Assembly (NCBI GenBank): GCA_963740695.1
Contig: CAVUFU010000011.1
Span: forward strand, 91,986 to 155,985
Direction: 5' to 3'
DNA length: 64,000 bases
Origin: an uncultured Acidobacteriota bacterium
Lineage (GTDB): Bacteria; Acidobacteriota; Terriglobia; Acidiferrales; UBA7541
Part shown: piece by piece, positions 19,320 through 55,262 of the stretch
How positions within the stretch are numbered: the first letter of the stretch is position 1
Layout: each line of letters starts with the position of its first letter
Notes under the pieces: model-generated
Databases searched by the model: none
What the model was told of the DNA's origin: nothing
What the model saw: only the letters and a program-made list of their open reading frames with translations
Program-made: the position numbers and the translations under genes

Positions 19320-21779
19320 ATGGAAACGTCTTCCGCGCTCTTTGAGCTTGCGAGCGTGGCTTTAGCCTGTCGCGACCAGGACACTTTGCTAAAAACGTTC
19401 GCCGCGCGCGTGGGCGCCAGCCTCGGCGCGCGCGCCGTTTTTGTGTGGACGCACGCTCCGGCTTCGAACGGCTCGCAGCACAGCAACGGCGACGAATCCG
19501 AAGGTCTGATCTGCCGCATGCGCTGGAACGAACCCGGGGAGCGGCTCGCGCCACTGGGCGAATCCGTCAGCGAAGGACTCCTCGCCGAAATCTACGAATC
19601 CGCTGAAACGCGGCGGCTGGGCGGCAAAGAAGTGGCCGACGACGGCTTCGAGCATCTCGATGACGCCAGCCGCGCGCGGGTGAAATCCGCGCTGTTTGCT
19701 TCGCTGCCGGGCGCGCAAAGCGCCGAAGGCGTCGTGGAAGTGCTCAACAAGCGCAGCGGCGAATTCACCGACGAAGACGCGCATTTCCTGGAGGAAGCCA
19801 GCCGGCTGGCCGGGACCGCACTCACGAACCTCGACGCTATCGAAAGCGAGCGCCACGCCCAGCTTTCGACGCTGGAACGCCTGACAGCGCTCTACGATCT
19901 CGGCCGCACGTTCACCTCTACGCTCGAACTCGGGGAATTGCTTCCAATTGTCGCTGGCAAAATTCGCGACATCCTCGGCGCCGGGTCCTGCAATCTGTGG
20001 CTCGCAGACGCGGGCTCGCAGGAAATGTATCTCGCGCAAAAAACCGGCGAAGATCCCACTATCGAGGATGATGCGCGCGTCTCGCTCACGGAAGGCTTGC
20101 TGGCGGAAGTCGCCCAGCAAGCGAGCCCGAAACTGGTGGAAGATCCCGCTGCGGAAGCCGGCTTCGCCGAGCGCTTGAAAGCCGGCGGCGAATTCGAAAT
20201 TAGCTCGTGGATCGGCGCACCGTTGCGCAAATCCAATGAAGTGCTGGGCGTCGTCGAACTGGTCAACAAACAAGACGGTTCGTCGTTCGACGAAGACGAT
20301 TTGTTTTTTCTCGAGACCATCAGCGAACAAGCTGCGGTGGCGCTGCACAATGCCAACCTGCTGGAATCCGAGCGCAAGGTTCACGCCCTCGACGCGCTGC
20401 TGAAAATTTCGCGGGAAATCACTTCCACACTCGATCTCGATCACGTCCTCTCCACCGTGGTGCACCAAGCCTCTTCAGTGGTTCCGTTCGATCGCTGCGT
20501 GATCGGCTTCTTCGACCGCGGCCGTTTCGTCCTTGGAGCGCTGTCCGGCGAGCCTGAAGTTCCCAAGACGCGTGAGATGAGCGACTTGCGTTCACGGCTG
20601 GAGTGGGTCGCCGGGCAGGAACAAGCCGTCTCCGCGGATCTCTACGAAGACGGTTGGCGCACGAACCCGGAAGATGCTCGCGCGCAAATTGTTCCTTTCC
20701 TCGAAGAGCACGAAGAAAACGGTTTCTACGCGCTGCCCCTGCGTGATGATCAAGGCACGCTGGGCGTGATGGCGCTGCTTAGCAGCGACGCCGATTTTCT
20801 CAGCGAAAATAATCGCGAGACGGTGGCGATTCTCGCGAACCAGACCACCGTCGCGATACGCAACGCGCAGCTCTACCAGCAAGTCCCGCTTGCGAATTTG
20901 CTGCAGCCCTGGACGCAGCGCAAAAAGAAACTGATGTCGGCGGTACCGCGCGGGCGCTGGGTGGAATATGCGCAGCGCGTTGGACTCGGCCTGATATTTC
21001 TCGCAGTCGTCCCCTGGCCGATGCGCGTAGGGACGGATGCGACCGTGGTTCCCGCCGAGCGCCGTTTGGTCAGCGCGATTGATGGCGGCGTGGTGCAGCG
21101 GGTCTTCGTTCACGAAGGCGACAAAGTGCAAGCCGGTCAGGCACTCGCGCAGCTCGATGACGGCGACGATCGCGTGAAGCTGGCGCAAGCGGAATCCGCT
21201 CTCGCGCAAGCGCGCCGCGATCTGGCCGACGCGGAGTTCCGCAACGATCCTTCCGCGGCGGGGCAGGCCAAAATCCGCGCGGACCTGCACGAATCCGAGG
21301 TGCAGCTCGAACAGCAGCGCGTCGCCGAGGCGCAACTGCGTTCGCCCATCGCGGGAATGGTGATCACGCCGAAAGTGGAAGAGAAGGCCGGCACGCTGGT
21401 AAAGCCGGGCGATGCTTTTGCCGAAATTGTGGGAGAAGACCGCATGGCGGCCGAAATGAGCGTGCCGGAAGAGGATTTGGAGCTGGTGCACCCGGGAAAA
21501 AATGTCGCGCTGAAATTGAACGCGTATCCCACCACCACGTTTCAAGGCACCGTCGAACGCATCGGCGCGCAGACGAAATCCGCGGCGGGAGAACAATATT
21601 TTATCGTGCGCGCGGTTTTTGATAATCCGGGCGGGCTTGCGCGCGACGGCATGGTGGGACGCGCGCGAATTCACGCCGGTGGCGGATGGTTTAAGAGCGG
21701 ATGGTATCCGGTGGGATACACTCTTTTGCGTTCACCCTTCCGTTGGCTGTGGCAAGAAGCGTGGAGTTGGCTGCCCTAG
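19320..21779 (+). CDS. Three tandem GAF domains + TM segment + HlyD/MFP-type periplasmic adaptor domain.
   Basis: 819 aa. It has three GAF-like repeats, the latter two ending in ...VALHNANLLE / ...VAIRNAQLYQ-type helices. A TM segment follows (VGLGLIFLAVVPWP). Then come a lipoyl-like/beta-barrel MFP region (GGVVQRVFVHEGDKVQAGQALAQLDD ... SPIAGMVITP ...) and a short coiled-coil. Confidence 0.75.
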   Translation: METSSALFELASVALACRDQDTLLKTFAARVGASLGARAVFVWTHAPASNGSQHSNGDESEGLICRMRWNEPGERLAPLGESVSEGLLAEIYESAETRRLGGKEVADDGFEHLDDASRARVKSALFASLPGAQSAEGVVEVLNKRSGEFTDEDAHFLEEASRLAGTALTNLDAIESERHAQLSTLERLTALYDLGRTFTSTLELGELLPIVAGKIRDILGAGSCNLWLADAGSQEMYLAQKTGEDPTIEDDARVSLTEGLLAEVAQQASPKLVEDPAAEAGFAERLKAGGEFEISSWIGAPLRKSNEVLGVVELVNKQDGSSFDEDDLFFLETISEQAAVALHNANLLESERKVHALDALLKISREITSTLDLDHVLSTVVHQASSVVPFDRCVIGFFDRGRFVLGALSGEPEVPKTREMSDLRSRLEWVAGQEQAVSADLYEDGWRTNPEDARAQIVPFLEEHEENGFYALPLRDDQGTLGVMALLSSDADFLSENNRETVAILANQTTVAIRNAQLYQQVPLANLLQPWTQRKKKLMSAVPRGRWVEYAQRVGLGLIFLAVVPWPMRVGTDATVVPAERRLVSAIDGGVVQRVFVHEGDKVQAGQALAQLDDGDDRVKLAQAESALAQARRDLADAEFRNDPSAAGQAKIRADLHESEVQLEQQRVAEAQLRSPIAGMVITPKVEEKAGTLVKPGDAFAEIVGEDRMAAEMSVPEEDLELVHPGKNVALKLNAYPTTTFQGTVERIGAQTKSAAGEQYFIVRAVFDNPGGLARDGMVGRARIHAGGGWFKSGWYPVGYTLLRSPFRWLWQEAWSWLP

Positions 21780-21818: not shown

Positions 21819-22745
21819 ATGAAGAAATTTGCACTGGCGTTGTTGATCGTCGCAACGGCCATCTGTTGCATTGGCTGCGATAATTCGACTGGGGCGTCCA
21901 GCCCGACGCCCGCGCCGCCTCCAGCGGCCGTTGCCCCTCCTCCCGCTGCCGTTACCGCGACGGCGAAGCCCGGTGACATCCTCAGCGTCCTGACGGTAGA
22001 GCATCAGGTGGATATCACCGCGCAGCGCGATGGAGTCGTCACCTCGCTCACGAGAGACGAAGGCAGCTCCGTAAAAGCAAACGAGGTGTTAGGCCAGCTC
22101 GACGACCGCTCCTTGCAAATGGAACTCATCAAGGCCCGCGACGATCTGCAAGTGGAGGATAACAACCGCAAATACAAGGAAGCCGAGCTCAAAGCCAAGA
22201 CCGCAGCTTTCCATCGCCAGCAGCAACTTCGCGCGCTAGGGCTTTCCAGCGACGCCGATCTGGAAGCCGCCGATTTTGAAGCCAAAGCCGCGGAATACGA
22301 TTTGCACGGATACGAAGCGCTGGTGGAAAGCGGCCACGCAGAAATCAATCGCCTGGATCTGGAACTTGACCAGACTCGCATTCATGCGCCCTTCGCCGGC
22401 GTCGTCGTACGGCGCTACATCCGCGAGGGGCAAGCCATTTCCAAAGGCGACAAATGTTTTCGCGTCAGCCAGCTCGCTCCGTTGCAAGTGCAATTCCAGG
22501 TGCCGGAATCTTCCGGGCGTCGTCCCACCGCCGGCGGCACCGTGGAGCTCTCGCTCGTAGACGACTCGAATCGCGCGCTCAATGCGCGGATTATGAAAGT
22601 CAGTCCCACGGTGGACGCCGCGAGCGACAGCTATGACGTTCTGGCGCAGCTTATTGGGCCTGGCCTCACGGATTTGCGGCCGGGCATGGCCGTGCGCGTA
22701 AGTTGGCCCGGCACGGCGCAGCCCAATTCACGCCCGAAACCCTGA
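21819..22745 (+). CDS. Lipoprotein, HlyD/RND-type membrane fusion protein.
   Basis: Lipobox LLIVATAICCIGC, a Pro/Ala linker, and MFP motifs (RDGVVTSLTRDEGSSVKANEVLGQLDD; coiled-coil; IHAPFAGVVVRRYIREGQ). Confidence 0.8.
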   Translation: MKKFALALLIVATAICCIGCDNSTGASSPTPAPPPAAVAPPPAAVTATAKPGDILSVLTVEHQVDITAQRDGVVTSLTRDEGSSVKANEVLGQLDDRSLQMELIKARDDLQVEDNNRKYKEAELKAKTAAFHRQQQLRALGLSSDADLEAADFEAKAAEYDLHGYEALVESGHAEINRLDLELDQTRIHAPFAGVVVRRYIREGQAISKGDKCFRVSQLAPLQVQFQVPESSGRRPTAGGTVELSLVDDSNRALNARIMKVSPTVDAASDSYDVLAQLIGPGLTDLRPGMAVRVSWPGTAQPNSRPKP

Positions 22746-22757
22746 CGGGAACATTCA

Positions 22758-24905
22758 ATGCGTTTTGGACCCACCAGCCTGCAAGTCTCCAGCGTCGCAG
22801 CCAAGGGCTTGCGCCGCCCGAAACTGCGCGAGGATCTACGGATCAGCGAGCAGACAGTGGCGGGCGAGACTAGCTACGTCATCAAGAACTACGAGACCAA
22901 TTCCTACAATCGCTACGGCAGCACGGAGTATGAGCTGCTCAAATTGTGCGACGGCGCGCACACCGCTGCCGAAATTTCAGATGAATTGACCACGCTCCAT
23001 CCGGATTCGCCGCTCAGCGAAGCCGAGGTGCTCGATTTCCTCGACAGCATCGAGCCCGCGATGTGGGAACGTTCGGTGGGCGAGAAGAATCTGGCAGTGC
23101 TCGAACGCATTCGCGACGAGCGCAAGGGCCGCGTCGATCAATCCAGCGTGCTGTATATCAGTTTCAAGGCTTGGGACCCCGACAAGACGCTCGCGAAAAT
23201 TGATCCCTACTTGAGCTGGATGTTCACATCCGGGTTTGTCGTTTTCTCGCTTTTCATATTCGTCATCGCCTGCTACCTGTTGGCCGGCGATTGGGCGCGC
23301 GTGCAACAGGATACTTCCGCGCTCTACAACTTTTCGGATAAGAGCGCCTACGACATCTGGATGTTCTGGATCCTGCTGATGATTCTTGGAGGGATCCACG
23401 AATTCGGGCACGGGCTCACCTGCAAGCACTTCGGTGGCGACGTGCACCAGATGGGATTTCTGCTGATTTATTTCACGCCCGCCTTCTACACGGACACCAC
23501 GGACATCCTTCTCTTCAAACGCGGCTCACAGCGCCAGTGGGTGATCTTCGCCGGCATCTGGATCGAATTGGTGCTGTGCGGGCTTTCGGGAGTGGTGTGG
23601 CACTTCTCGGCCGCCGGTTCGGTGCTGAACGACCTGGCCTATAAAATGATGCTGCTCAGCGGCATTCAAGGCGCGTTATTAAACTTGAATCCGCTGATCA
23701 AAGCGGACGGCTACTACGCGCTTTCGCAATTCCTGCAGGTGGACAACCTGCGCGAGGATTCTTTCGCATTTCTCCGCGCGTGGGCAGAGAAATATCTGCT
23801 GCGCCATGACATCGACTTGCCCGCGGCCAGCAAACGCCAGCGCCGCATCTTCTTTCTCTTCGGCGTCGCCGCCATCATTTACAGCACGTCGCTGTTGATC
23901 CTGGTTCTGACCTTTGCGAACAACGTTCTGGTGTCCAAGCTCGGAGATTGGTGGGGCGCACTGGCGACTCTGGGCGTGGTCTATTTCTTCACGCGGAAAG
24001 GAATCCGGCAGGTTTGGCCGCCCACGCTGGCCTGGCTGCGCCAGAAACGGGAGGACTACATGGCTTGGAAAATGACGCGCACGCAACAAGCGGGAGCGTT
24101 GGGCGTCGCGCTGCTGCTCCTTCTGCCGCCCGTAGGTTCCAGTGTCTCCACTCCTCTGGTGCTCGAACCGGGGCGAACCGCGCACGTTCACGCTGAAGTG
24201 CCCGGTCAAATCGCAAATGTCTACATTCAACAGGGTCAAACCGTTCAAGCCGGACAGGTGCTCGCCATCCTGCGCAACCCTGAAATCGAAGCGGACGCCG
24301 CCATTCTTCGCGAGCAACTTGCCCTGGCCAGTAGCGACCTGCGCAACGGGCAGGATCGCTCGGACTATGAAAAGGCCGCCGGCGCGGTGCGCGATCGCAA
24401 GCGTCTTCAAGAGGAATTCTCGGTTGCCGAAAATCGCGTCGCGGCGCTGCAGATTCGCGCACCGATGGATGGCGTTATTGCCACCGCCGGTGTGAGCCAA
24501 CGCGCCGGCGCGTTTCTTGACGCCGGCGATGAACTAACCACCGTAGTGGACCGCAGCACGATGAAAGCCCGCATCCTGGTTCGCGATTGGGACCTGGAGG
24601 ACGTTCATCCCGGCGCCGCAGCGAAAGCGAAAGTGATTCCGTTTCCGTACCGCACGTATAGCGGCAAAGTGGATCAAATCCTCCCGGCAGCAGCAGCCGA
24701 TCGCCCCGTCTCCGAGACGCAAGACCTGCAGCGCCTCGGCCAGCAGCTCACCAATTACTTTGCCGTGGACATGGAATTCGCCAATCCGGACGGCTCGTTG
24801 CGCGAGGGAATGACTGGGACGGCGAAAATCGCCGGCAAGAGGTCCTCGATAGCCCACCAGGTAGCCAGGGCCACCTCGCGCTGGATTCACGCACAGTTCT
24901 GGTAG
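22758..24905 (+). CDS. Fusion protein: PqqD-like (RRE-type) N-terminal domain + M50 site-2-protease membrane domain + HlyD/MFP C-terminal domain.
   Basis: 715 aa. The N-terminus YVIKNYETNSYNRYGSTEYELLKLCDGAHTAAEISDELTTLHP...EVLDFLDSI matches the PqqD pattern by eye. HExxH is at IHEFGHGLTCKHFGG and the second M50 motif at NLNPLIKADGYY. The C-terminus is MFP-like (VPGQIANVYIQQGQTVQAGQVLAIL ... APMDGVIAT ...). Confidence 0.75.
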   Translation: MRFGPTSLQVSSVAAKGLRRPKLREDLRISEQTVAGETSYVIKNYETNSYNRYGSTEYELLKLCDGAHTAAEISDELTTLHPDSPLSEAEVLDFLDSIEPAMWERSVGEKNLAVLERIRDERKGRVDQSSVLYISFKAWDPDKTLAKIDPYLSWMFTSGFVVFSLFIFVIACYLLAGDWARVQQDTSALYNFSDKSAYDIWMFWILLMILGGIHEFGHGLTCKHFGGDVHQMGFLLIYFTPAFYTDTTDILLFKRGSQRQWVIFAGIWIELVLCGLSGVVWHFSAAGSVLNDLAYKMMLLSGIQGALLNLNPLIKADGYYALSQFLQVDNLREDSFAFLRAWAEKYLLRHDIDLPAASKRQRRIFFLFGVAAIIYSTSLLILVLTFANNVLVSKLGDWWGALATLGVVYFFTRKGIRQVWPPTLAWLRQKREDYMAWKMTRTQQAGALGVALLLLLPPVGSSVSTPLVLEPGRTAHVHAEVPGQIANVYIQQGQTVQAGQVLAILRNPEIEADAAILREQLALASSDLRNGQDRSDYEKAAGAVRDRKRLQEEFSVAENRVAALQIRAPMDGVIATAGVSQRAGAFLDAGDELTTVVDRSTMKARILVRDWDLEDVHPGAAAKAKVIPFPYRTYSGKVDQILPAAAADRPVSETQDLQRLGQQLTNYFAVDMEFANPDGSLREGMTGTAKIAGKRSSIAHQVARATSRWIHAQFW

Positions 24906-24932: not shown

Positions 24933-24972
24933 CAGAAAAAAGGGAAAGAGCCGCCGTTCCTGGGACGGCGGC
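24933..24972 (-). terminator. Intrinsic terminator for micropeptide gene 1 (possibly bidirectional).
   Basis: Perfect 8-bp GC stem GCCGCCGT (24950..24957) / ACGGCGGC (24965..24972). On the minus strand it is followed by TCTTTCCCTTTTTTCT. Confidence 0.6.
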
Positions 24973-25037
24973 CCTTTGGGGGTGCTGCTACTGCAATCCT
25001 CGGCAGGCTGGACCTAACCGGAGGAACTTGTTAAATC

Positions 25038-25145
25038 TTACTGGAACCTGATCAAGGGCTTAATGCCCGGCAGGTCGGCGCGCTTCATCAACGGCTTTAC
25101 GTTACCGGTCTTCTTGCCCTTCACTGGCTTGGCATTCTTGGCCAT
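25038..25145 (-). CDS. Lys-rich micropeptide 1 (35 aa): MAKNAKPVKGKKTGNVKPLMKRADLPGIKPLIRFQ.
   Basis: Hand translation. SD AAGGGAGA lies 7 nt before the ATG (25145). It shares MAK...KK-x3-(T/V)KPL(M/L) with peptides 2 and 3. It is below the size cut-off of the ORF track. Confidence 0.55.
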   Translation of the reverse strand: MAKNAKPVKGKKTGNVKPLMKRADLPGIKPLIRFQ

Positions 25146-25196
25146 GATCCAATCTCCCTTGATCTTGTGTTTGTAACGCCGGCTCTGCAAACTCTT

Positions 25197-25232
25197 GAAA
25201 AGGGCCGCCCCTCGACGGCATCAGCCCTTTTC
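25197..25232 (-). other. Stem-loop between micropeptide genes 2 and 1 (terminator or attenuator candidate).
   Basis: Perfect 9-bp arms GAAAAGGGC (25197..25205) / GCCCTTTTC (25224..25232). There is no clean U-tract after it. Confidence 0.35.
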
Positions 25233-25306
25233 CAGGCTGAAACTTTGCAACGCCCTCACACCGCGTTCCTGAAACAACGCCGGTTGCCGAGCGTCGCAGT
25301 GGGAAC

Positions 25307-25384
25307 TTACCTCTTGCCGACCGGAACCATCAACGGCTTCGTCGCTTCGATCTTCTTTGCCTTCTTCAAGGTCTTCTTTGCCAT
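25307..25384 (-). CDS. Lys-rich micropeptide 2 (25 aa): MAKKTLKKAKKIEATKPLMVPVGKR.
   Basis: It forms the C-terminal part of the listed 114-aa ORF 25307..25651. SD GAGGGGGA lies 6 nt before the internal ATG at 25384, and a sigma54 promoter lies 49 nt upstream. It differs from peptide 3 in the first 18 codons by 4 synonymous third-position changes and 4 replacements. Confidence 0.65.
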   Translation of the reverse strand: MAKKTLKKAKKIEATKPLMVPVGKR

Positions 25385-25432
25385 TTTTGTTCCCCCTCGT
25401 TTGATTCGCCCATTGGGCGTCGCCGCAGTAGT

Positions 25433-25449
25433 ATGCAACGCTATCACCA
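25433..25449 (-). promoter_or_regulatory. Sigma54 (-24/-12) promoter for micropeptide 2.
   Basis: The minus strand reads TGGTGATAGCGTTGCAT, with GG-N10-GC spacing exactly as in the consensus TGGCAC-N5-TTGCA/T. Confidence 0.7.
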
Positions 25450-25559
25450 AACTCGGCGGCCTCCCGCAATCCTGCAAGGCCCTATTTTTGTTGCAGATGG
25501 CGTCCCAGCATTCATGCGCGTTCTCGATCAGGGCCTTTCTCGCGTTGAAATAATCACCG

Positions 25560-25579
25560 CCTGTTGAAAATTTCAACGG
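25560..25579. promoter_or_regulatory. Palindromic upstream activator site (enhancer B).
   Basis: GTTGAAA-a-TTTCAAC has perfect 7-bp arms (25563..25577). Its centre is about 129 nt upstream of the sigma54 promoter at 25433..25449. Confidence 0.6.
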
Positions 25580-25670
25580 AGCCGCCCCCCGCGGCACCAC
25601 ATCGCGCGCGCTGCTGCCCGCCAGTCGAAGATCTCGAATTGCCAGACCCACGGGAGGAATCGAGAAGGGG

Positions 25671-25715
25671 AAGCAAAAAACAAAAGGGCCGCCAGCCTCG
25701 CGGCGGCAGCCCTTT
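25671..25715 (-). terminator. Intrinsic terminator for micropeptide gene 3.
   Basis: Long GC-rich stem (AAAGGGCCGCC ... GGCGGCAGCCCTTT), followed on the minus strand by TGTTTTTTGCTT. Confidence 0.65.
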
Positions 25716-25785
25716 CATCATCTAATTCTGGCCGGCTGGCGCGCCCTACCTCGCGACAGGCGCGCGCAAGCCCCCGATAGGGTCA

Positions 25786-25863
25786 CTACTTATACGCGAT
25801 TGCTTTCAGCAACGGCTTGGTCGGGTTGATCTTCTTCGATTTCTTCAAGGTTTTCTTGGCCAT
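25786..25863 (-). CDS. Lys-rich micropeptide 3 (25 aa): MAKKTLKKSKKINPTKPLLKAIAYK.
   Basis: Hand translation. SD TGGGAGA lies 5 nt before the ATG (25863), a sigma54 promoter lies 47 nt upstream, and a terminator lies about 70 nt downstream. Confidence 0.65.
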   Translation of the reverse strand: MAKKTLKKSKKINPTKPLLKAIAYK

Positions 25864-25909: not shown

Positions 25910-25926
25910 ATGCAAAGTCGTCGCCA
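25910..25926 (-). promoter_or_regulatory. Sigma54 (-24/-12) promoter for micropeptide 3.
   Basis: The minus strand reads TGGCGACGACTTTGCAT, with GG-N10-GC spacing. The flanks align with the promoter at 25433..25449 (TTTGG(C/T)GA...TTGCATA). Confidence 0.7.
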
Positions 25927-26039
25927 AAGTCCAGGCGCATCGCGCCGCGCTCCAACTGCCGCCTTTTGCTGCACATGGCATTCGCACCCGGTCGCGGCGC
26001 TGTCGGCCAGCCGCGCGGCCGCATTGAATTACTCATCAA

Positions 26040-26058
26040 CCGTTGATATTTTCAACGG
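26040..26058. promoter_or_regulatory. Palindromic upstream activator site (enhancer A).
   Basis: The plus strand reads CCGTTGATATTTTCAACGG (minus strand CCGTTGAAAATATCAACGG). Arms match 8 of 9. It has the same core as the site at 25560..25579. Its centre is about 131 nt upstream of the promoter at 25910..25926, and it overlaps the stop codon of the second SET gene. Confidence 0.6.
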
Positions 26059-26546
26059 CGCCTTCGGCTGCGCCGGCCATTGATCGTGCCGCGGCAGCTA
26101 GCCGCACCACAACGGCACGGAATCTGTTCCGCGTCGGGATGAAACCGATAGTCCAGAGTCAATTCTTCCCCTTTCGTTATCGTCCGGCGGCTGAACAACA
26201 GCATGCGGCCTCGCGCCCGGCGGTACGCAAGATTGGGGTCGCAACAGTGATTGATCAGTTGAGCTCCGTTTCCACCTACGGCTCCATTGATGACCCAGCG
26301 CTTGTTGAGACTCGCCAGATAAACCGGCGTGTGCAGTGAAGACTTCCAGTGCCGGTTGTGGGCTTGCAGTACTCGGCTGTACGGCACAAGCTCACCGGTG
26401 TACTCGATCACCTTGTGCCGCGCAGGAATCGCTTCTTCGGCGAATACGCCCCAGCGATGTATGGGCGACCGCCGGACCTTCAGCCGGTAGCGGGACGCTC
26501 CCGGAGCGATGGACCTGCGCACCGGTGATTGCTTACGAGCTGGCAT
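26052..26546 (-). CDS. SET-domain protein-lysine methyltransferase-like protein (copy B).
   Basis: RYRLKVRRSPIHRWGVFA..., LINHCCDPN (the NHSCxPN motif), GEELTLDYRF (catalytic Tyr context) and post-SET CRCGAASCRGT. I prefer the ATG at 26546 (MPARKQSP...) by analogy with copy A. That ATG lies 2 nt after the copy A stop (TAA-cg-ATG). Confidence 0.85.
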   Translation of the reverse strand: MPARKQSPVRRSIAPGASRYRLKVRRSPIHRWGVFAEEAIPARHKVIEYTGELVPYSRVLQAHNRHWKSSLHTPVYLASLNKRWVINGAVGGNGAQLINHCCDPNLAYRRARGRMLLFSRRTITKGEELTLDYRFHPDAEQIPCRCGAASCRGTINGRRSRRRR

Positions 26547-26548
26547 CG

Positions 26549-27004
26549 TTAATTCAAAATGACCCGGAGCGTGCCGCGGCACCGGCGCTCTCCGCAACGA
26601 CAGGGGATCCGTCGGATTTTGACCGCGTAGCGGTAACTCACGGTCAGTTCTTCGCCAGAACGAATTTTCCGGAGGCTACATAAGTAAAGCCGGCTGCGGA
26701 CGCATCGCCACATCAAATTGGGCCGGCATGAATGGTTGATGAACTGAGCGCCGCTTCCGCCCGATCTGCCGTCCACGCACCAGGTGGAATTCATCGCGGC
26801 GATGTAGATATCGTTCGGGGGGTTGATCCTCGCGGCGTCTCCGTAAGTGAGGCGTTTTCCGGTGTATTCGATCACGCGGCGGTGGCGCGGAATCTCCTCA
26901 AGCGCAAAGACGCCGTAGCGATGCAGCGTGGAATGCGCGACCCGCAGCCGGTAGCGAGCCGCCTTCGGATTGATCTGGCGCGACTTGGGGCTGGATGCTT
27001 TCAT
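26549..27004 (-). CDS. SET-domain protein-lysine methyltransferase-like protein (copy A).
   Basis: RYRLRVAHSTLHRYGVFA..., FINHSCRPN, GEELTVSYRY and post-SET CRCGERRCRGT. Confidence 0.85.
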   Translation of the reverse strand: MKASSPKSRQINPKAARYRLRVAHSTLHRYGVFALEEIPRHRRVIEYTGKRLTYGDAARINPPNDIYIAAMNSTWCVDGRSGGSGAQFINHSCRPNLMWRCVRSRLYLCSLRKIRSGEELTVSYRYAVKIRRIPCRCGERRCRGTLRVILN

Positions 27005-27096: not shown

Positions 27097-28449
27097 TCAC
27101 AAATTATATTTGCGGCAGAGGTAATTCAGCCGGTTGCGGTCCACACCCAACAGGTTCGCCGCGTCCGCCTTCACGTGCTTGGCCTGCTCCAGCGCCTCCT
27201 CAATCCAGCGCCGTTCGAAGGCCTCGATTTCTCGGTCCAATTTGATGCCTGTGGACGGCAGCCGGAACCGCCCACGCGCGTCACGGCCGACGGACTGCAC
27301 GATTTCCGCCGGCAGATCCTTCAGGGTGATGGCGTCGCCGTCGGTCATGATCACCAGGCGCTGAATCGCGTTCTCCAGTTCGCGAACGTTCCCCGGCCAC
27401 GGATAGCGTTTCAGTGCCAGCATGGCGTCGTCGGCGATCTGCTTCGCGGGAAACCCGTTCGCCGCGGAATACACGCTCACGAAATAATCTGCCAGCACCG
27501 GAATATCTTCCACCCGTTCGCGCAGCGCCGGAACGAATATAGGCACCACGTGAATCCGGTAATAAAGGTCCTCGCGGAATCGGTCCTGCCGCACCATCTC
27601 TTCCAAGTCTTCGTTCGTCGCGCTCACGAGCCGAAAATCCACGCGGATGGATTTTTTCCCGCCGAGGCGCGTCAGCGAACGGTCCTCCAGCACCCGCAGC
27701 AATTTGCTCTGCAGCGCCGGCGTGAGCGTCGCAATTTCATCCAAAAATAGTGTCCCTTGGTGCGCCAGCTCGATGCGGCCTTCTTTCATCGCGACGGCGC
27801 CGGTAAACGCGCCGCGCTCGTAGCCGAAAAGCTCCGCCTCCATCAATCCTTCCGGCAGCGCGGCGCAATTCACGCCGATGAACGCCCGGCTGCGCCGCGG
27901 ACTCTGCTCATGCAGCGCGCGCGCCACCAATTCTTTCCCGACGCCGCTTTCCCCGCGGATGATCACGTTAGTCGTCGCGCGGGCCATCCGCTTGATCGAA
28001 TCGAAGACGTGGCGCATGGCGTCCGTAGCGCCGATCAAATCTCCCAGCGTATTTTTGCGGCTGATTTCGTCGCGCAGGATGCGATTCTCTCGCTGGATGT
28101 GGAGTTTTTCGATGGCGCGCTCGAGCAACAGCCGCAGCACGTCCGTATCAATCGGCTGAATGAAATAATCGTAGCAGCCCGCGTCAATCACTTTCAGCGC
28201 CGTGGATTTCGTCTGATCGGTGCTCAGAACGATCACCAGCGTGTCGATGTCTCCGCACGCGAGGCGGCTCAGCATCTCCGTGCATTCGCGCAGTCCGCCG
28301 GATTCCATCGGCAGCGCAAGGAGCAGCACGTCCAGGCTCGCTTCCTGCAAGAGCCGGTAAGCAGTCTCGTAGTCCTCGCCCTCGATTACCTCAAAATCCG
28401 AACGCAGCTTCGCCACGATGCTCGCGCGCATGGCCGCGTCATCATCCAC
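27097..28449 (-). CDS. Sigma54-dependent transcriptional activator (NtrC family): receiver-like domain + AAA+ domain + Fis-type HTH.
   Basis: Walker A GESGVGKE, the GAFTGA loop (ERGAFTGAV) and a C-terminal HTH (AANLLGVDRNRLNYLCRKYNL). The receiver is degenerate (see findings). The listed start is GTG. The frame stays open upstream (AKIAI-VDDD) with only ATT/ATA codons there, so the start is uncertain. Confidence 0.88.
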   Translation of the reverse strand: MDDDAAMRASIVAKLRSDFEVIEGEDYETAYRLLQEASLDVLLLALPMESGGLRECTEMLSRLACGDIDTLVIVLSTDQTKSTALKVIDAGCYDYFIQPIDTDVLRLLLERAIEKLHIQRENRILRDEISRKNTLGDLIGATDAMRHVFDSIKRMARATTNVIIRGESGVGKELVARALHEQSPRRSRAFIGVNCAALPEGLMEAELFGYERGAFTGAVAMKEGRIELAHQGTLFLDEIATLTPALQSKLLRVLEDRSLTRLGGKKSIRVDFRLVSATNEDLEEMVRQDRFREDLYYRIHVVPIFVPALRERVEDIPVLADYFVSVYSAANGFPAKQIADDAMLALKRYPWPGNVRELENAIQRLVIMTDGDAITLKDLPAEIVQSVGRDARGRFRLPSTGIKLDREIEAFERRWIEEALEQAKHVKADAANLLGVDRNRLNYLCRKYNL

Positions 28450-28671
28450 TATGGCAATTTTTGCTCTGGGAGCCCCGGGTGCGATGAGCCATCTCCAGTG
28501 CGAACACGGCCGTTTCGCACAAAGCGTGAAGTTAAATCCGATCCCGCGTTGCCGAGATTTTAGGTGCCCACCGTCCGCATGTCAACGCCGCAAGCGCGTC
28601 TTTCGCCGCAAAGTCGCTGTGAAGCAGTACAATTTCGCAGGCCCGTAACCGCCTTGGAGTAGCGCGGCAAT

Positions 28672-29220
28672 ATGACGTCTGAACCCGGATCGCAGCCGTC
28701 TGCGATGCACACCAGGCGCGTCCTGGCTCTCGTCGGGACGGGAGTCTTTCTCGTTCTGGCACCTGGTTTCTTGGTTGTCCTCGTCCCTTTTTGGATCTCC
28801 CGCTGGGGGATTCAACCGCCGCTTCTGGGATTCATGGCGTTTCGCATACTTGGCGTCGTGTTGATGGCCGCGGCCTTGCCTGTATTGCTCGAATCATTCG
28901 CGCGCTTTGCGCTGCAGGGGCTTGGCACGCCGGCGCCCATATTCCCGACGCAACATTTGATCGTGAAAGGCTTCTATCGGTACGTGCGCAATCCCATGTA
29001 TGTCGCGGTCGTATCGATGGTGCTCGGACAAGGCCTTTTCTTCGGCAACCCGCAGGTGCTCGTCTACGGCTTTATTGCGTGGCTGGGCACATTCTTGTTT
29101 GTGCTCAGCTATGAGGAGCCCACACTCCGCAGAACCTTCGGCGCTGAATATGAGACGTATCGCGCGAACGTGCCACGGTGGATTCCGCGCCTTACGCCTT
29201 GGCGCAGCAGCACGAATTGA
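28672..29220 (+). CDS. Isoprenylcysteine carboxyl methyltransferase (ICMT/PEMT)-family membrane methyltransferase.
   Basis: TM-rich protein with LIVKGFYRYVRNPMYVAVV...EEPTLRRTFGAEYETYRANVPRWIP, the typical ICMT-family C-terminal motif. Confidence 0.65.
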   Translation: MTSEPGSQPSAMHTRRVLALVGTGVFLVLAPGFLVVLVPFWISRWGIQPPLLGFMAFRILGVVLMAAALPVLLESFARFALQGLGTPAPIFPTQHLIVKGFYRYVRNPMYVAVVSMVLGQGLFFGNPQVLVYGFIAWLGTFLFVLSYEEPTLRRTFGAEYETYRANVPRWIPRLTPWRSSTN

Positions 29221-29404: not shown

Positions 29405-29920
29405 ATGAGATACACCAAGTACTTCATGATTTTCGCTTTATTCGGACTTTGCTTAGCGATCGCGCCGAACGCGCATGCGCAACGCGTTGTCGTCGGCGTG
29501 GGAGTCGGACCTGGGTACGTGGATCCAGCTCCCGTCTGCGCTTACGGATACTATGGATATTACCCGTACGCTTGCGCACCCTACGGCTACTATGGCCCTA
29601 GCTGGTTCTCCGGCGGCCTATTCATTGGCGCCGGCCCGTGGTATCGCGGCGGCTATTGGGGTCGCTCCGGATACTGGGGACGTCCTGGATGGGGCGGGTA
29701 CGGCGGCCACGGTTACTACGGCGGTCATGGCTACTACGGCGGCCGCGGATATGTAGGACACGGTGAGGTTGGCGGCGGTTACCGCGGCGGCAGCGCCTAT
29801 CGCGGTGGCAACAGCTTCCACGGCGGCGGTAGCTTTCACGGAAGCGCCTCTCACGGTGGGGAGGGTTTCCACGGAGGTGGCGGCGGCCACGGCGGCGGCC
29901 ACGGTGGCGGCCACAGGTAA
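29405..29920 (+). CDS. Secreted low-complexity Gly/Tyr/His-rich protein.
   Basis: Sec signal peptide (FALFGLCLAIAPNAHA). It is followed by YGYYGYYPY, GGYWGRSGYWGRPGWGGYGGHGYYGGHGYYGG and a C-terminal HGGGGGHGGGHGGGH tail. Confidence 0.7.
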   Translation: MRYTKYFMIFALFGLCLAIAPNAHAQRVVVGVGVGPGYVDPAPVCAYGYYGYYPYACAPYGYYGPSWFSGGLFIGAGPWYRGGYWGRSGYWGRPGWGGYGGHGYYGGHGYYGGRGYVGHGEVGGGYRGGSAYRGGNSFHGGGSFHGSASHGGEGFHGGGGGHGGGHGGGHR

Positions 29921-29982: not shown

Positions 29983-30140
29983 GAACCCCACAAGTTTTAC
30001 TGACTTCGCATCATTTGTGCCCCTAGCAATTTGCCTGAGCTTCCGTGAAACGAACTGCGCGTAAGTTGCACTATCCATCAAGCGAACATACCGAGCAGTC
30101 GGCCCTACCTCCCCGGCGAAAGACGAGATTGGAGAAGACC

Positions 30141-52321: not shown

Positions 52322-55258
<2,937 letters not shown>

Positions 55259-55262
<4 letters not shown>

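What the first reader, a model, noticed from the sequence alone, without database searches (positions are those of the whole stretch)
25038..25863. Three unannotated paralogous Lys-rich micropeptide genes hidden in a 1.1-kb gap
Hand translation of the minus strand gives three peptides:
- MAKKTLKKSKKINPTKPLLKAIAYK (25863..25786)
- MAKKTLKKAKKIEATKPLMVPVGKR (25384..25307)
- MAKNAKPVKGKKTGNVKPLMKRADLPGIKPLIRFQ (25145..25038)

Each has a GGGAGA-type SD 5-7 nt upstream. Peptides 2 and 3 differ in the first 18 codons by four synonymous third-position changes (GCA/GCC, AAG/AAA twice, ACG/ACC) against four replacements, and they diverge completely after KPL(M/L). That pattern points to a conserved N-terminal (leader-like or recognition) part and a variable C-terminal part. 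Peptide 1 carries the KPL motif twice. After Met removal, the AKKT..KK N-terminus is reminiscent of Lys-rich histone or ribosomal-protein tails, which are SET-enzyme substrates.
Basis: partly seen in the sequence, partly recalled or inferred. Interest (0 to 1): 0.85.

Follow-up and report, generated by a model that had tools for sequence, protein, structure and literature searches.

The report
Lys-rich leader micropeptides for an export protease
The three tiny genes are real and conserved in soil Acidobacteria (Acidiferrales); each has its own sigma-54 promoter, and they most likely encode precursor peptides whose conserved Lys-rich front end is recognised and cut off by a neighbouring membrane protease/export machine, releasing short, fast-evolving tail peptides.

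Summary
The three minus-strand ORFs (25/25/35 aa) exist, each with a Shine-Dalgarno site.

In 80 of 81 related loci from Candidatus Acidiferrales, 1-4 such ORFs lie in the same gap. They show a codon-periodic substitution pattern. The leader is almost invariant (MAKKTLKKxKK[IL]ExTKPL). In type-1 peptides the 3-15-aa tail evolves faster than the flanking non-coding DNA.

Most of these genes are separate sigma-54 units: a TGG-N8-TTGCA promoter 44-61 nt upstream, GTTGAA/TTCAAC activator sites at -130/-121/-101, and a hairpin terminator.

The conserved partners are:
- a sigma-54 activator whose receiver lacks the phospho-acceptor Asp;
- three HlyD-type adaptors, one fused to a site-2 (M50-like, HExxH) protease with an N-terminal RiPP-recognition-element (RRE) fold.

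My best reading is leader-dependent cleavage and export of short cationic peptides, which may be signals or antimicrobials.

The SET-substrate idea is only partly supported. The SET genes form a module-specific family, but they are present in only 26 of 80 species loci, and the peptides persist without them.

Distant proteobacterial homologues of the machine sit next to giant LEPR-XLL proteins.

I found no paper describing this system. I rate it a new variant of a known kind, with moderately high interest.

The parts
25786..25863 (-). pepA: 25-aa type-1 precursor MAKKTLKKSKKINPTKPL|LKAIAYK (leader | variable tail).
   Evidence: Orthologues with the same leader and different tails are seen.
25307..25384 (-). 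pepB: 25-aa type-1 precursor MAKKTLKKAKKIEATKPL|MVPVGKR.
   Evidence: In close orthologues the leader differs at 0.019 per site and the tail at 0.274 per site.
25038..25145 (-). pepC: 35-aa type-2 precursor with two KPL motifs. It is conserved along its whole length within the close clade.
   Evidence: A position-anchored alignment gives codon-position entropies of 0.37/0.28/0.84.
25910..25926 (-). Sigma-54 -24/-12 promoter of pepA: TGGCGACGACTTTGCAT.
   Evidence: The same motif lies 44-61 nt upstream of the ATG in 125 of 170 orthologous peptide genes.
25433..25449 (-). Sigma-54 -24/-12 promoter of pepB: TGGTGATAGCGTTGCAT.
26020..26062 (-). Upstream activator site of pepA: palindrome CCGTTGAAAATATCAACGG plus a TTCAA half-site. 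It partly overlaps the 3' end of the SET1 ORF.
   Evidence: Half-sites sit at fixed positions -130/-121/-101 in 115 of 121 promoters.
25541..25583 (-). Upstream activator site of pepB: palindrome CCGTTGAAATTTTCAAC plus a half-site.
25683..25716 (-). Intrinsic terminator after pepA.
   Evidence: Fold energy -29.8 kcal/mol, z = -5.9, followed by a T-run.
25197..25231 (-). Hairpin after pepB with a weak T-run. It may be a leaky terminator that allows read-through into pepC, which has no sigma-54 promoter of its own.
   Evidence: -24.3 kcal/mol, z = -2.2. No promoter motif upstream of pepC. The read-through is inferred.
24945..24977 (-). Intrinsic terminator after pepC.
   Evidence: z = -3.9.
26052..26597 (-). 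SET-domain protein 1, with NHCCDPN, ELTLDY and a post-SET CRCGAASC motif. Accessory component.
   Evidence: Pfam SET 5.5e-18. The family is confined to this module.
26549..27004 (-). SET-domain protein 2, with NHSCRPN, ELTVSY and a post-SET CRCGERRC motif. Accessory component.
   Evidence: Pfam SET 8.5e-19. Best solved relative is the MLL/KMT2 SET domain, 3.5e-16. Homologues at 58-59% identity are again inside the module.
27097..28449 (-). Sigma-54 enhancer-binding protein (receiver, AAA+ and Fis-type HTH domains). The receiver lacks the phospho-acceptor Asp. The true start probably lies upstream of the GTG at 28449.
   Evidence: Alignment with NtrC. Present in nearly all related loci.
22758..24905 (+). 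715-aa fusion protein. N-terminal RRE-like domain (about residues 25-100), site-2/M50-like membrane metalloprotease (HEFGH at 214-218, NLNPLIKADG at 309-318), and a C-terminal HlyD periplasmic adaptor (about 463-700).
   Evidence: NCBIfam daptide_HExxH 5e-53, YydH/LiaK 1.3e-12 and weak PqqD hits. Pfam HlyD and M50. AF2 model with b-b-b-a-a-a topology. Top nine Foldseek hits are RRE domains bound to leader peptides.
21819..22745 (+). 308-aa membrane-fusion (HlyD/RND-MFP) protein.
   Evidence: Conserved in synteny.
19320..21779 (+). 819-aa protein with three GAF domains followed by an HlyD adaptor.
   Evidence: Conserved in synteny.

Best explanation
pepA, pepB and pepC are precursor peptides of a leader-dependent processing and export system that is conserved across Candidatus Acidiferrales.

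Proposed steps:
1. The neighbouring sigma-54 activator binds the GTTGAAA-N-TTTCAAC sites about 100-130 nt upstream of each -24/-12 promoter and switches on each micro-gene as its own transcription unit. pepC in this window is probably read through from pepB.
2. The 20-42-aa products carry a conserved Lys-rich leader with core KK-x-KK-[LI]-E-x-[TK]-K-P-L.
3. The cytoplasmic RRE-like domain at the N-terminus of the 715-aa membrane protein docks this leader.
4. The site-2-type HExxH protease domain of the same protein cuts at or just after the KPL motif.
5. The C-terminal tail (3-15 aa in type-1 peptides; longer, with repeated KPL, in type 2) is passed outward. The route is the fused HlyD domain together with the two other HlyD-type adaptors.
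6. In about one third of lineages, including this one, dedicated SET-domain methyltransferases may add methyl groups to lysines as optional tailoring.

The released short cationic, Cys-free peptides are most likely extracellular signals, or possibly antimicrobials.

Shown here: coding status, leader/tail architecture, promoter and UAS architecture, synteny, the RRE fold and the protease motifs.

Inferred: binding, the cleavage site, export, methylation and the biological role of the tails.
For: Coding status:
- ORFs are intact in 80 of 81 related loci.
- Codon-position entropy in pepC is 0.37/0.28/0.84; the upstream flank is about 1.0 with no periodicity.
- There is synonymous variation at A2, T15, P17 and L18 of the leader.
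- Leader insertions and deletions are in whole codons (MAKKKTLKK, MAKKAKKALKK, MAKKLKK).
- A Shine-Dalgarno-like site is present for 160 of 170 genes, against 15% of control ATGs.

Leader/core architecture:
- Pairwise difference per site: leader 0.019, non-coding flanks 0.15-0.16, tail 0.274.
- 157 unique peptides among 170, and only 1 of 170 contains Cys.
- All 36 short hits among 1.84 billion representatives share the leader and differ in the tail.

Regulation:
- The strict sigma-54 motif occurs at a fixed distance in 125 of 170 genes.
- 143 of 147 motif hits in the gap are followed by a Lys-rich micro-ORF, against 2 of 77 elsewhere.
- UAS half-sites at -130/-121/-101 occur in 115 of 121 promoters, against a background of 0.14 per 200 nt.
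- The activator gene is adjacent in nearly all loci.

Machine:
- Invariant synteny of GAF-HlyD, HlyD and M50-HlyD convergent on the peptide genes, while the outer flanks differ.
- From the peptide side, 43 of 60 informative metagenome contigs have the M50-HlyD gene downstream.
- The protease part matches the RRE-dependent daptide leader peptidase model (5e-53) and the YydH/LiaK epipeptide protease (1.3e-12).
- The N-terminal model has RRE topology. Its best structural matches are TbiB1-leader complexes, PqqD, lasso B1-leader and the sactisynthase RRE (probability 0.96-1.0, TM to target 0.58-0.66 for the standalone RRE chains).

Precedents:
- An RRE N-terminally fused to a site-2 protease removes the daptide leader (doi 10.1101/2023.03.08.531785).
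- The M50 protease EpeP is thought to both cleave and export (PMC10885120).
Against: - No experiment shows translation, binding, cleavage or export.
- The RRE evidence is moderate. Model pLDDT is about 75-80 in that domain, Foldseek E-values are 7e-3 to 7e-2 (none below 1e-3), and the PqqD sequence hits have E about 0.002.
- The NCBIfam protease hits fall below the curated cut-offs, so the enzyme is a relative of the known leader peptidases, not a member.
- No energised inner-membrane transporter (ABC, RND or MFS) and no TolC-like gene belongs to the conserved module, so the export path is incomplete as read from the locus.
- The leaders are extremely hydrophilic, unlike typical membrane-embedded substrates of site-2 proteases.
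- About 17 of 60 informative metagenome contigs carry the same leader family away from the machine.
- Most lineages have no modifying enzyme, so 'RiPP' in the strict sense may not apply.
- Tails as short as 3 aa (ISR, MKR, RRK) are hard to picture as active products.
Confidence: 0.6

Rival explanations
1. The peptides exist mainly as substrates of the adjacent SET-domain lysine methyltransferases (histone-tail mimics, the first reader's idea). Methylation would be the key step that makes them functional.
For: - The two SET genes lie between the activator and the peptide genes.
- The SET family was found only inside this module. That holds for 26 genome loci at two different positions within it, for homologues at 58-59% identity, and for a SET-SET-34-aa-ORF arrangement at 46% identity.
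- The catalytic and post-SET motifs are intact.
- The closest solved relatives are MLL/KMT2 H3K4 enzymes, which read an N-terminal A-R-T-K tail. After Met removal the peptides start A-K-K-T.
Against: - 54 of 80 species-level loci have no SET gene within 8 kb, yet keep the peptides, promoters, activator and export genes.
- Leaders are the same in loci with and without SET.
- Lys in the tail is common in both groups: 40 of 46 tails with SET and 25 of 35 without.
- No methylation assay exists.
- The SET enzymes could instead act on another module protein.
Confidence: 0.12
2. The peptides are intracellular Lys-rich micro-proteins. They might bind nucleic acid or the ribosome, or regulate the activator or the HlyD machine. 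They would not be cleaved or exported, and the adjacency to the export operon would reflect co-regulation only.
For: - 28% Lys, highly hydrophilic, with no signal-peptide-like hydrophobic core.
- The activator has a receiver without a phospho-acceptor, so it needs some other input.
- Orphan copies occur far from the machine.
- The module has no energised transporter.
Against: - A hypervariable C-terminal tail next to an invariant leader is the signature of a recognised-then-removed leader. It is not what a small structural or nucleic-acid-binding protein looks like.
- The partner protein carries an RRE fold fused to a leader-peptidase-type protease.
- The convergent synteny is kept across 63-97% identity while the outer flanks change.
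Confidence: 0.15
3. The transcripts act as sigma-54-dependent small RNAs and the ORFs are incidental, or the ORFs are chance features of an intergenic region.
For: - The transcription units are short, about 150-200 nt, with strong terminator hairpins.
- No protein-family match in Pfam-independent NCBIfam scans.
Against: - Third-codon-position excess and leader conservation eight times stronger than in the flanking UTRs.
- ATG and Shine-Dalgarno site kept in 160 of 170 genes.
- In-frame indels only.
- No Rfam family at gathering score, and only one chance-level hit on the terminator (E = 0.063).
Confidence: 0.03

Closest known systems
Daptide biosynthesis: precursors MpaA1-3 and the RRE-fused intramembrane site-2 protease MpaP (doi 10.1101/2023.03.08.531785).
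   Same: - Several short precursor genes per cluster, each with a conserved leader and a variable core.
- The leader peptidase is a membrane HExxH site-2 protease with an N-terminal RRE domain. This is the best NCBIfam match of the 715-aa protein (NF041824, 5e-53).
- The products are cationic.
   Different: - No C-terminal Thr.
- No MpaB, MpaC, MpaD or MpaM homologues in the module.
- The score is below the family cut-off (180.6 against 300).
- The protease is fused to an HlyD adaptor and accompanied by two more HlyD proteins.
- The host is a diderm acidobacterium, the leader motif is unrelated (ELExMEAP against KKxKKLExTKPL), and transcription is driven by sigma-54.
Epipeptides (YydF/EpeX) with the M50 protease YydH/EpeP (review PMC10885120).
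   Same: - A small precursor is processed by a membrane M50-type protease that is thought to handle both cleavage and export.
- NF058609 matches at 1.3e-12.
- JGI names the homologues 'putative peptide zinc metalloprotease'.
   Different: - No radical-SAM epimerase and no ABC transporter.
- The match is below the cut-off.
- The precursors are unrelated.
Proteobacterial operons TolC / small MFP / HlyD / site-2-protease-HlyD encoded next to giant LEPR-XLL or DUF4347 proteins (NCBIfam NF012209). These are uncharacterised experimentally.
   Same: - The 715-aa protein aligns over 80-96% of its length, including the RRE region, at 24-27% identity (E 1e-18 to 1e-34) with the site-2-protease-HlyD genes of these operons.
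- The operons also hold two further HlyD/MFP genes.
- Their cargo proteins begin with a basic stretch followed by ALEPRxLL. This loosely resembles the basic stretch plus KKLExTKPL of the micropeptides, with the same L-E-x4-L spacing.
   Different: - The cargo there is giant (3,000 to more than 10,000 aa); here it is a 3-15-aa tail.
- The LEPR-XLL model does not match the peptides at E up to 10, and profile-profile comparison finds nothing (probability 0.1%).
- There is no TolC in the Acidiferrales module.
- The middle HlyD protein here carries three GAF domains.
- There are no sigma-54 cassettes.
Gram-positive peptide pheromone precursors (SHP, enterococcal sex pheromones, S. aureus linear peptides) processed by the M50 protease Eep (for example PMC7157817).
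   Same: Precursors of 20-35 aa with a basic N-terminus. An M50 intramembrane protease releases a short C-terminal peptide of 5-10 aa, which varies between strains.
   Different: - Those mature peptides are hydrophobic and the precursors resemble signal peptides; here both parts are hydrophilic and basic.
- Eep has no RRE and no HlyD fusion.
- Export there is by a separate ABC transporter.
- The resemblance is in the logic, not in sequence.

Membership tests
RiPP-type precursor/processing system (generic definition) | Short ribosomal precursor with a conserved leader and a variable core. | tested here: met
   The leader is invariant and the tail hypervariable across 170 genes.
RiPP-type precursor/processing system (generic definition) | A RiPP recognition element (RRE) in a neighbouring processing protein. 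| tested here: met
   AF2 gives b-b-b-a-a-a at residues 28-97. The top nine Foldseek PDB hits are all RRE domains, though E-values are only 7e-3 to 0.11. There are also weak PqqD sequence hits.
RiPP-type precursor/processing system (generic definition) | A post-translational modification enzyme that acts on the core. | tested here: inconclusive
   The only candidate is the SET methyltransferase, present in 26 of 80 loci. Most modules encode no modifying enzyme.
Daptides | RRE-fused intramembrane site-2 protease at equivalog level (NF041824). | tested here: not met
   Score 180.6 bits, E = 5e-53, but the curated cut-off is 300. It is a relative, not an equivalog.
Daptides | Precursor ends in Thr, and the cluster encodes an oxidative decarboxylase, an aminotransferase, an N-methyltransferase and a DUF-RRE protein. 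| tested here: not met
   Tails end mostly in K or R. None of these enzymes is in the conserved module.
Epipeptides (YydF/EpeX type) | Radical-SAM epimerase plus a YydH/LiaK-family protease. | tested here: not met
   No radical-SAM gene is present. NF058609 scores 47.9 bits against a cut-off of 225.
LEPR-XLL N-terminal sorting signal (NF012209) | Match to the 24-position LEPR-XLL model. | tested here: not met
   No hit at E up to 10 for eight family members, while the proteobacterial cargo proteins hit at 1.9e-8 and 4e-3. hhalign probability is 0.1%.
LEPR-XLL-associated export operon | A site-2-protease-HlyD fusion together with further HlyD/MFP genes. | tested here: met
   24-27% identity over 80-96% of the protein. 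The operon make-up is shown, and compared with the window.
LEPR-XLL-associated export operon | An adjacent TolC-family outer-membrane factor and a giant repetitive cargo protein. | tested here: not met
   Neither is present in the window module or in the related loci.
Sigma-54-dependent transcription unit | -24 GG and -12 GC elements with exact spacing, an adjacent enhancer-binding protein, and upstream activator sites. | tested here: met
   for the DNA elements. for the Sigma54_activat, AAA_lid and HTH_8 domains. Binding and activation are inferred.
Canonical two-component response regulator (for the activator) | Phospho-acceptor Asp in the receiver domain (D54 of NtrC). | tested here: not met
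   The aligned position is Ala or Gly (LLLALPM, LLLGLPI) in all 16 orthologues examined.
SET-domain protein lysine methyltransferase substrates | Co-occurrence of the peptide with the SET enzyme throughout the family. | tested here: not met
   SET is present in 26 of 80 genome loci, whereas peptides are present in 80 of 81 related loci (79 of the 80 genome loci).
SET-domain protein lysine methyltransferase substrates | Demonstrated methyl transfer to the peptide. | not testable with these tools
   This needs an enzyme assay or mass spectrometry.

The most novel reading that the evidence does not exclude
Acidiferrales would run a peptide-based communication or antagonism system built from a minimal-cargo version of the secretion machine that Proteobacteria appear to use for giant LEPR-XLL proteins.

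In this reading:
- sigma-54-driven micro-precursors with histone-tail-like Lys-rich leaders are docked by an RRE, cut by a site-2 protease and expelled through a three-HlyD conduit;
- in some lineages they are methylated first by dedicated MLL-like SET enzymes.

That would be the first SET-dependent ribosomal peptide natural product, and a rare case of linear-peptide signalling in a diderm soil phylum.
Probability: 0.2. Interest if true: 0.85.

Novelty: new variant of a known kind. Interest (0 to 1): 0.66.

Why it matters
Acidobacteria are among the most abundant soil bacteria, and almost nothing is known about how they signal or compete. This locus gives a concrete, testable system with four parts: a defined precursor family, a defined promoter and activator, a defined recognition domain and a defined protease.

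It would extend the RRE-plus-site-2-protease logic of daptides and epipeptides to a diderm phylum, and to a fusion with an envelope-spanning adaptor.

It links that logic to the still uncharacterised machinery encoded next to giant LEPR-XLL proteins. A 25-aa substrate would be a far easier handle for studying that machine than a 10,000-aa one.

If the SET enzymes methylate the peptides, this would give bacterial SET-domain proteins a native substrate, which has long been unclear.

The practical lesson for annotation is that 20-40-aa genes carrying their own sigma-54 promoters are systematically missed or left unnamed.

Tried and rejected
- **Direct homology search with the peptides.** I used the exhaustive representative search and DNA pattern scans instead.
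- **L001 and L002.** These contigs are about 99.8% identical to the window and gave no comparative information.
- **Known RNA families.** Rfam gave nothing at gathering score for the whole window. There was one chance-level ctRNA hit on the pepA terminator at E = 0.063.
- **Known peptide families.** NCBIfam gave no hit for the peptides at E up to 1 or up to 10.
- **Homology of the leader to the LEPR-XLL signal.** The HMM scan and hhalign were both negative. I keep it only as a functional analogy.
- **SET as an obligatory partner.** Rejected because SET is present in only 26 of 80 loci. Comparing tail composition between loci with and without SET was uninformative and is confounded by phylogeny.
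- **The 16-aa ORF at 54872 that shares KAIAYK with the pepA tail.** It is the C-terminal end of a 146-aa ORF, so the match is coincidence.
- **Neighbouring PEMT/ICMT-like methyltransferase, 171-aa ORF and tyrosinase as system parts.** They occur in 9, 4 and 1 of 80 loci, so this is local synteny only.
- **A sigma-54 promoter for the HlyD operon or for pepC in this window.** None was found with the strict motif.
- **Literature.** Searches for SET and RiPP, M50 and HlyD and RRE, sigma-54 and RiPP, and Acidobacteria and RiPP found no description of this system.
- **First palindrome regex.** It used the wrong spacing and found almost nothing. This was corrected.
Full report
**What is in the window**

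- pepA, 25863..25786: MAKKTLKKSKKINPTKPLLKAIAYK
- pepB, 25384..25307: MAKKTLKKAKKIEATKPLMVPVGKR
- pepC, 25145..25038: MAKNAKPVKGKKTGNVKPLMKRADLPGIKPLIRFQ

Each has a GGGAGA or GGGGGA Shine-Dalgarno site 6-8 nt before the ATG.

The two genes are part of a duplicated cassette with a period of 479 nt. The cassette also contains an upstream palindrome and a terminator hairpin. All three genes are followed by stable hairpins. Those after pepA and pepC are followed by T-runs.

A whole-window scan finds no other free-standing ORF of this kind. Rfam finds no RNA family.

**Regulatory anatomy**

pepA and pepB are each preceded by a sigma-54 -24/-12 element with exact consensus spacing: TGGCGACGACTTTGCAT and TGGTGATAGCGTTGCAT. 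These are two of only three such matches in 64 kb.

Each also has a near-perfect palindrome, CCGTTGAAA(A/T)(A/T)TTCAAC, plus a half-site about 100-130 nt further upstream.

On the same strand upstream lie a sigma-54 enhancer-binding protein (27097..28449) and two SET-domain genes. pepC has no sigma-54 motif of its own in this window. It follows a hairpin with a weak T-run, so read-through from pepB is likely; this is an inference.

**Neighbours**

Converging on the peptide genes from the plus strand is a three-gene operon:
- a protein with three GAF domains followed by an HlyD adaptor (819 aa);
- a membrane-fusion protein (308 aa);
- a 715-aa fusion protein.

The middle of the 715-aa protein is a site-2/M50-type membrane metalloprotease. 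It has HEFGH at residues 214-218 and NLNPLIKADG at 309-318, both invariant among homologues. Its C-terminal third is an HlyD adaptor.

Its best curated match is the daptide biosynthesis intramembrane metalloprotease (5e-53), followed by the YydH/LiaK epipeptide protease (1.3e-12). Both fall below the family cut-offs. There are weak PqqD hits at residues 59-103.

An AlphaFold2 model of residues 1-200 gives three strands followed by three helices at residues 28-97, with pLDDT about 75-80. The nine best Foldseek matches in the PDB are all RiPP recognition elements. They are TbiB1 bound to its leader peptides, PqqD, lasso-peptide B1 bound to its leader, and the RRE of a sactipeptide synthase. Probabilities are 0.96-1.0, TM to target is 0.58-0.66 for the standalone RRE chains, and E-values are 7e-3 to 0.11.

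So the protein reads as: leader-binding domain, leader peptidase, periplasmic adaptor.

**Source organism and comparative set**

Identical and near-identical contigs are metagenome assemblies. Named homologues are from Candidatus Acidiferrales, Acidobacteriota.

A scan of one genome per species with an alignment of the 715-aa protein returned 80 loci at 63-97% identity. More came from exact-protein look-ups.

In nearly all of them the order is the same: GAF-HlyD, HlyD, M50-HlyD, a gap of 0.25-6 kb, then the sigma-54 activator on the opposite strand. The genes outside this block differ between loci.

**The micro-ORFs are conserved genes**

A motif scan of the gaps finds 1-4 Lys-rich minus-strand ORFs of 20-42 aa in most loci: 170 genes and 157 distinct peptides.

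A search anchored only on the sigma-54 motif, which is independent of the ORF, gives the same picture. Of 147 motif hits in the gap, 143 are followed within 38-85 nt by such an ORF, against 2 of 77 elsewhere in the same loci. This also recovers divergent peptides that the first scan missed.

Taken together, 80 of 81 loci have at least one peptide gene.

In an alignment anchored on position after the M50-HlyD stop codon, not on the ORF, pepC is intact in every locus that aligned. Entropy by codon position is 0.37/0.28/0.84, while the upstream flank is about 1.0 in all three phases.

Other coding evidence:
- In type-1 leaders the variation at A2, T15, P17 and L18 is synonymous.
- Leader length changes are whole codons.
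- A Shine-Dalgarno-like site precedes 160 of 170 genes, against 15% of control ATGs.

**Leader and tail**

Type-1 peptides share MAKKTLKK[AS]KK[IL][EQ][AP]TKPL, followed by 3-15 residues that differ even between genomes whose 715-aa proteins are at least 94% identical. Examples are MVPVGKR, MVPRG, TIPVRFK and MVPFGKR.

In that close group, pairwise difference per site is 0.164 in the 5' UTR, 0.019 in the leader, 0.274 in the tail and 0.152 in the 3' flank. The leader is under strong purifying selection. The tail changes faster than neighbouring non-coding DNA; the numbers are small, but this is consistent with diversifying selection.

Type-2 peptides (pepC) share KPVK(K)GKK.G.VKPL and then carry one or two further KPL/RPL units.

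Across the order the common core is KK-x-KK-[LI]-E-x-x-x-x-L, with L6, K11 and L18 invariant.

The peptides are 28% Lys, almost free of Asp and Glu outside the leader Glu, and only 1 of 170 contains Cys.

An exhaustive profile search of 1.84 billion representatives found 36 short proteins. All have this leader and different tails, and none is named. The family therefore looks lineage-restricted and uncharacterised.

**Regulation is conserved**

The strict motif TGG-N8-TTGC[AT] lies 44-61 nt upstream of the ATG in 125 of 170 genes.

GTTGAA/TTCAAC half-sites sit at -130, -121 and -101 relative to the promoter in 115 of 121 cases. The background is 0.14 sites per 200 nt.

The activator's receiver domain lacks the phospho-acceptor Asp in all 16 orthologues aligned; the position is Ala or Gly. 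Its input is therefore probably not a histidine kinase.

**The SET question**

An iterated search finds SET genes in 26 of 80 species loci, always inside the module and never in the 8-kb flanks. They sit at two different positions: after the activator, or directly next to the 3' end of the M50-HlyD gene.

SET homologues at 58-59% identity are again in the module. One at 46% identity sits in a SET-SET-34-aa-ORF arrangement.

The enzymes keep their catalytic and post-SET motifs and are closest to the MLL/KMT2 SET domains among solved structures.

This makes a functional tie to the system likely, and the Lys-rich peptides are the obvious candidate substrates. However, two thirds of lineages lack SET and keep everything else. 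Methylation is therefore at best optional tailoring, and it is untested.

**View from the peptide side**

A back-translated leader pattern found 120 metagenome stretches.
- Of 60 with at least 1.8 kb downstream, 43 have the M50-HlyD gene there.
- Of 40 with at least 3 kb upstream, 31 have the activator.

The rest are orphan copies, and many keep the sigma-54 promoter. One recurrent context places two peptide genes beside a CPBP/Rce1-like protease, a DUF5818 protein, a GntR regulator and an ABC ATPase. Other contexts are heterogeneous.

**A wider relative of the machine**

tblastn against plasmids shows full-length homologues of the 715-aa protein, RRE region included, at 24-27% identity in Proteobacteria.

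There the gene closes an operon of TolC, a small MFP, HlyD and the site-2-protease-HlyD fusion. The operon sits next to giant proteins annotated as LEPR-XLL, DUF4347 or Ig-like.

The N-termini of these giant proteins are a basic stretch followed by ALEPRxLL. The micropeptide leaders loosely resemble this: a basic stretch, then KKLE, then L six residues on. But they fail the LEPR-XLL model and a profile-profile comparison.

I therefore treat this as homology of the machine and, at most, analogy of the signal. The only paper in the library that mentions the LEPRxLL domain treats it as an uncharacterised N-terminal domain of giant proteins.

**Mechanism proposed**

1. The activator turns on each micro-gene through sigma-54.
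2. The RRE-like domain docks the leader.
3. The site-2 protease domain cuts at or after KPL.
4. The tail, or for type 2 possibly several KPL-delimited pieces, leaves through the HlyD assembly.
5. SET enzymes, where present, may methylate lysines first.

The tails match known peptide pheromones in size (mean about 8-10 aa) and in strain-level variability. This makes signalling my preferred role. An antimicrobial role is also possible, and the CPBP-plus-ABC context of some orphan copies hints at it.

Precedents are the RRE-fused site-2 protease that removes daptide leaders and EpeP, an M50 protease thought to both cleave and export.

Weak points:
- There is no energised transporter or outer-membrane factor in the module.
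- The substrates are very hydrophilic for an intramembrane protease.
- The structural statistics for the RRE are moderate.
- Some tails are only three residues long.
- There is no experimental evidence at all.

**Novelty**

Six literature searches found no description of this precursor family, of an RRE-site-2-protease-HlyD fusion with micropeptide substrates, or of SET enzymes in ribosomal peptide pathways. The library is incomplete, so this is not proof of absence.

The logic (leader, RRE, M50 protease) is known. The following appear new:
- the precursor family;
- the fusion to an adaptor;
- the sigma-54 cassette architecture;
- the acidobacterial host;
- the link to the LEPR-XLL machinery;
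- the module-specific SET family.

I rate it a new variant of a known kind, with interest 0.66.

Noticed in passing
window 27097-28560 (minus strand): The sigma-54 activator's receiver domain has Ala or Gly where the phospho-acceptor Asp should be, in all 16 orthologues aligned. The conserved beta-1 strand (KIAIVDDD) lies upstream of the first ATG/GTG/TTG. The real start is therefore probably a non-canonical codon further upstream, and a conserved Ile about 10 residues before KIAIVDDD is a candidate.
   Followed up: partly
plasmid loci L216, L217, L220, L221, L222 (Burkholderia, Pseudosulfitobacter, Magnetospirillum, Azospirillum, Mesorhizobium): Distant homologues of the 715-aa protein (24-27% identity, full length) close operons of TolC, small MFP, HlyD and site-2-protease-HlyD. 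These operons sit beside giant LEPR-XLL, DUF4347 or Ig-like proteins. Where the cargo N-terminus was read (four of five: Pseudosulfitobacter, Burkholderia, Mesorhizobium, Azospirillum) it is a basic stretch followed by ALEPRxLL; the Magnetospirillum ELWxxDGT-repeat neighbour shows no such motif. This looks like an uncharacterised secretion system with an N-terminal cleaved signal.
   Followed up: partly
metagenome loci L186, L189, L191, L193, L201, L123: Orphan pairs of peptide genes with the same leader (for example MAKKTLKKAKKIQPTKPL... and MAKKTLKKAKKLEPTKPLKRK) lack the strict sigma-54 motif. Where annotated (L189), they lie beside a CPBP/Rce1-like (Abi-type) membrane protease, a DUF5818 protein, a GntR regulator and an ABC ATPase; the other five loci show the same ORF-size pattern but were not scanned. 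This layout is reminiscent of bacteriocin immunity modules.
   Followed up: partly
window 28672-29220 (+), 29405-29920 (+), 30045-31550 (+): A PEMT/ICMT-like membrane methyltransferase lies divergent from the activator, followed by a 171-aa ORF with no family and a tyrosinase/polyphenol-oxidase-like gene. They accompany the module in only 9, 4 and 1 of 80 species loci, so they are probably local synteny and not parts of the system.
   Followed up: yes
loci L030 (gap 5.9 kb) and L048 (gap 5.2 kb): Some relatives have several kb inserted between the M50-HlyD gene and the activator. L030 carries two separate pairs of type-1 and type-2 peptide genes, which suggests duplication of the peptide cassettes.
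   Followed up: no
window 26549-26597: The two SET ORFs overlap by 49 nt as listed. An in-frame ATG in SET1 directly after the SET2 stop codon (MPARKQ...) would make them abut, which suggests translational coupling.
   Followed up: no
window 57237-57253 (+), 17181 (+), 35758 (-), 22498 (-): Four further matches to the relaxed sigma-54 motif TGG-N8-TTGC[AT]. None is followed by a Lys-rich micro-ORF, and they were not examined further.
   Followed up: no
window 54822-55262 (-): A 146-aa ORF ends in ...[18 protein letters not shown]. It shares the hexapeptide KAIAYK with the pepA tail and also has a KPL. I judge this a coincidence.
   Followed up: yes
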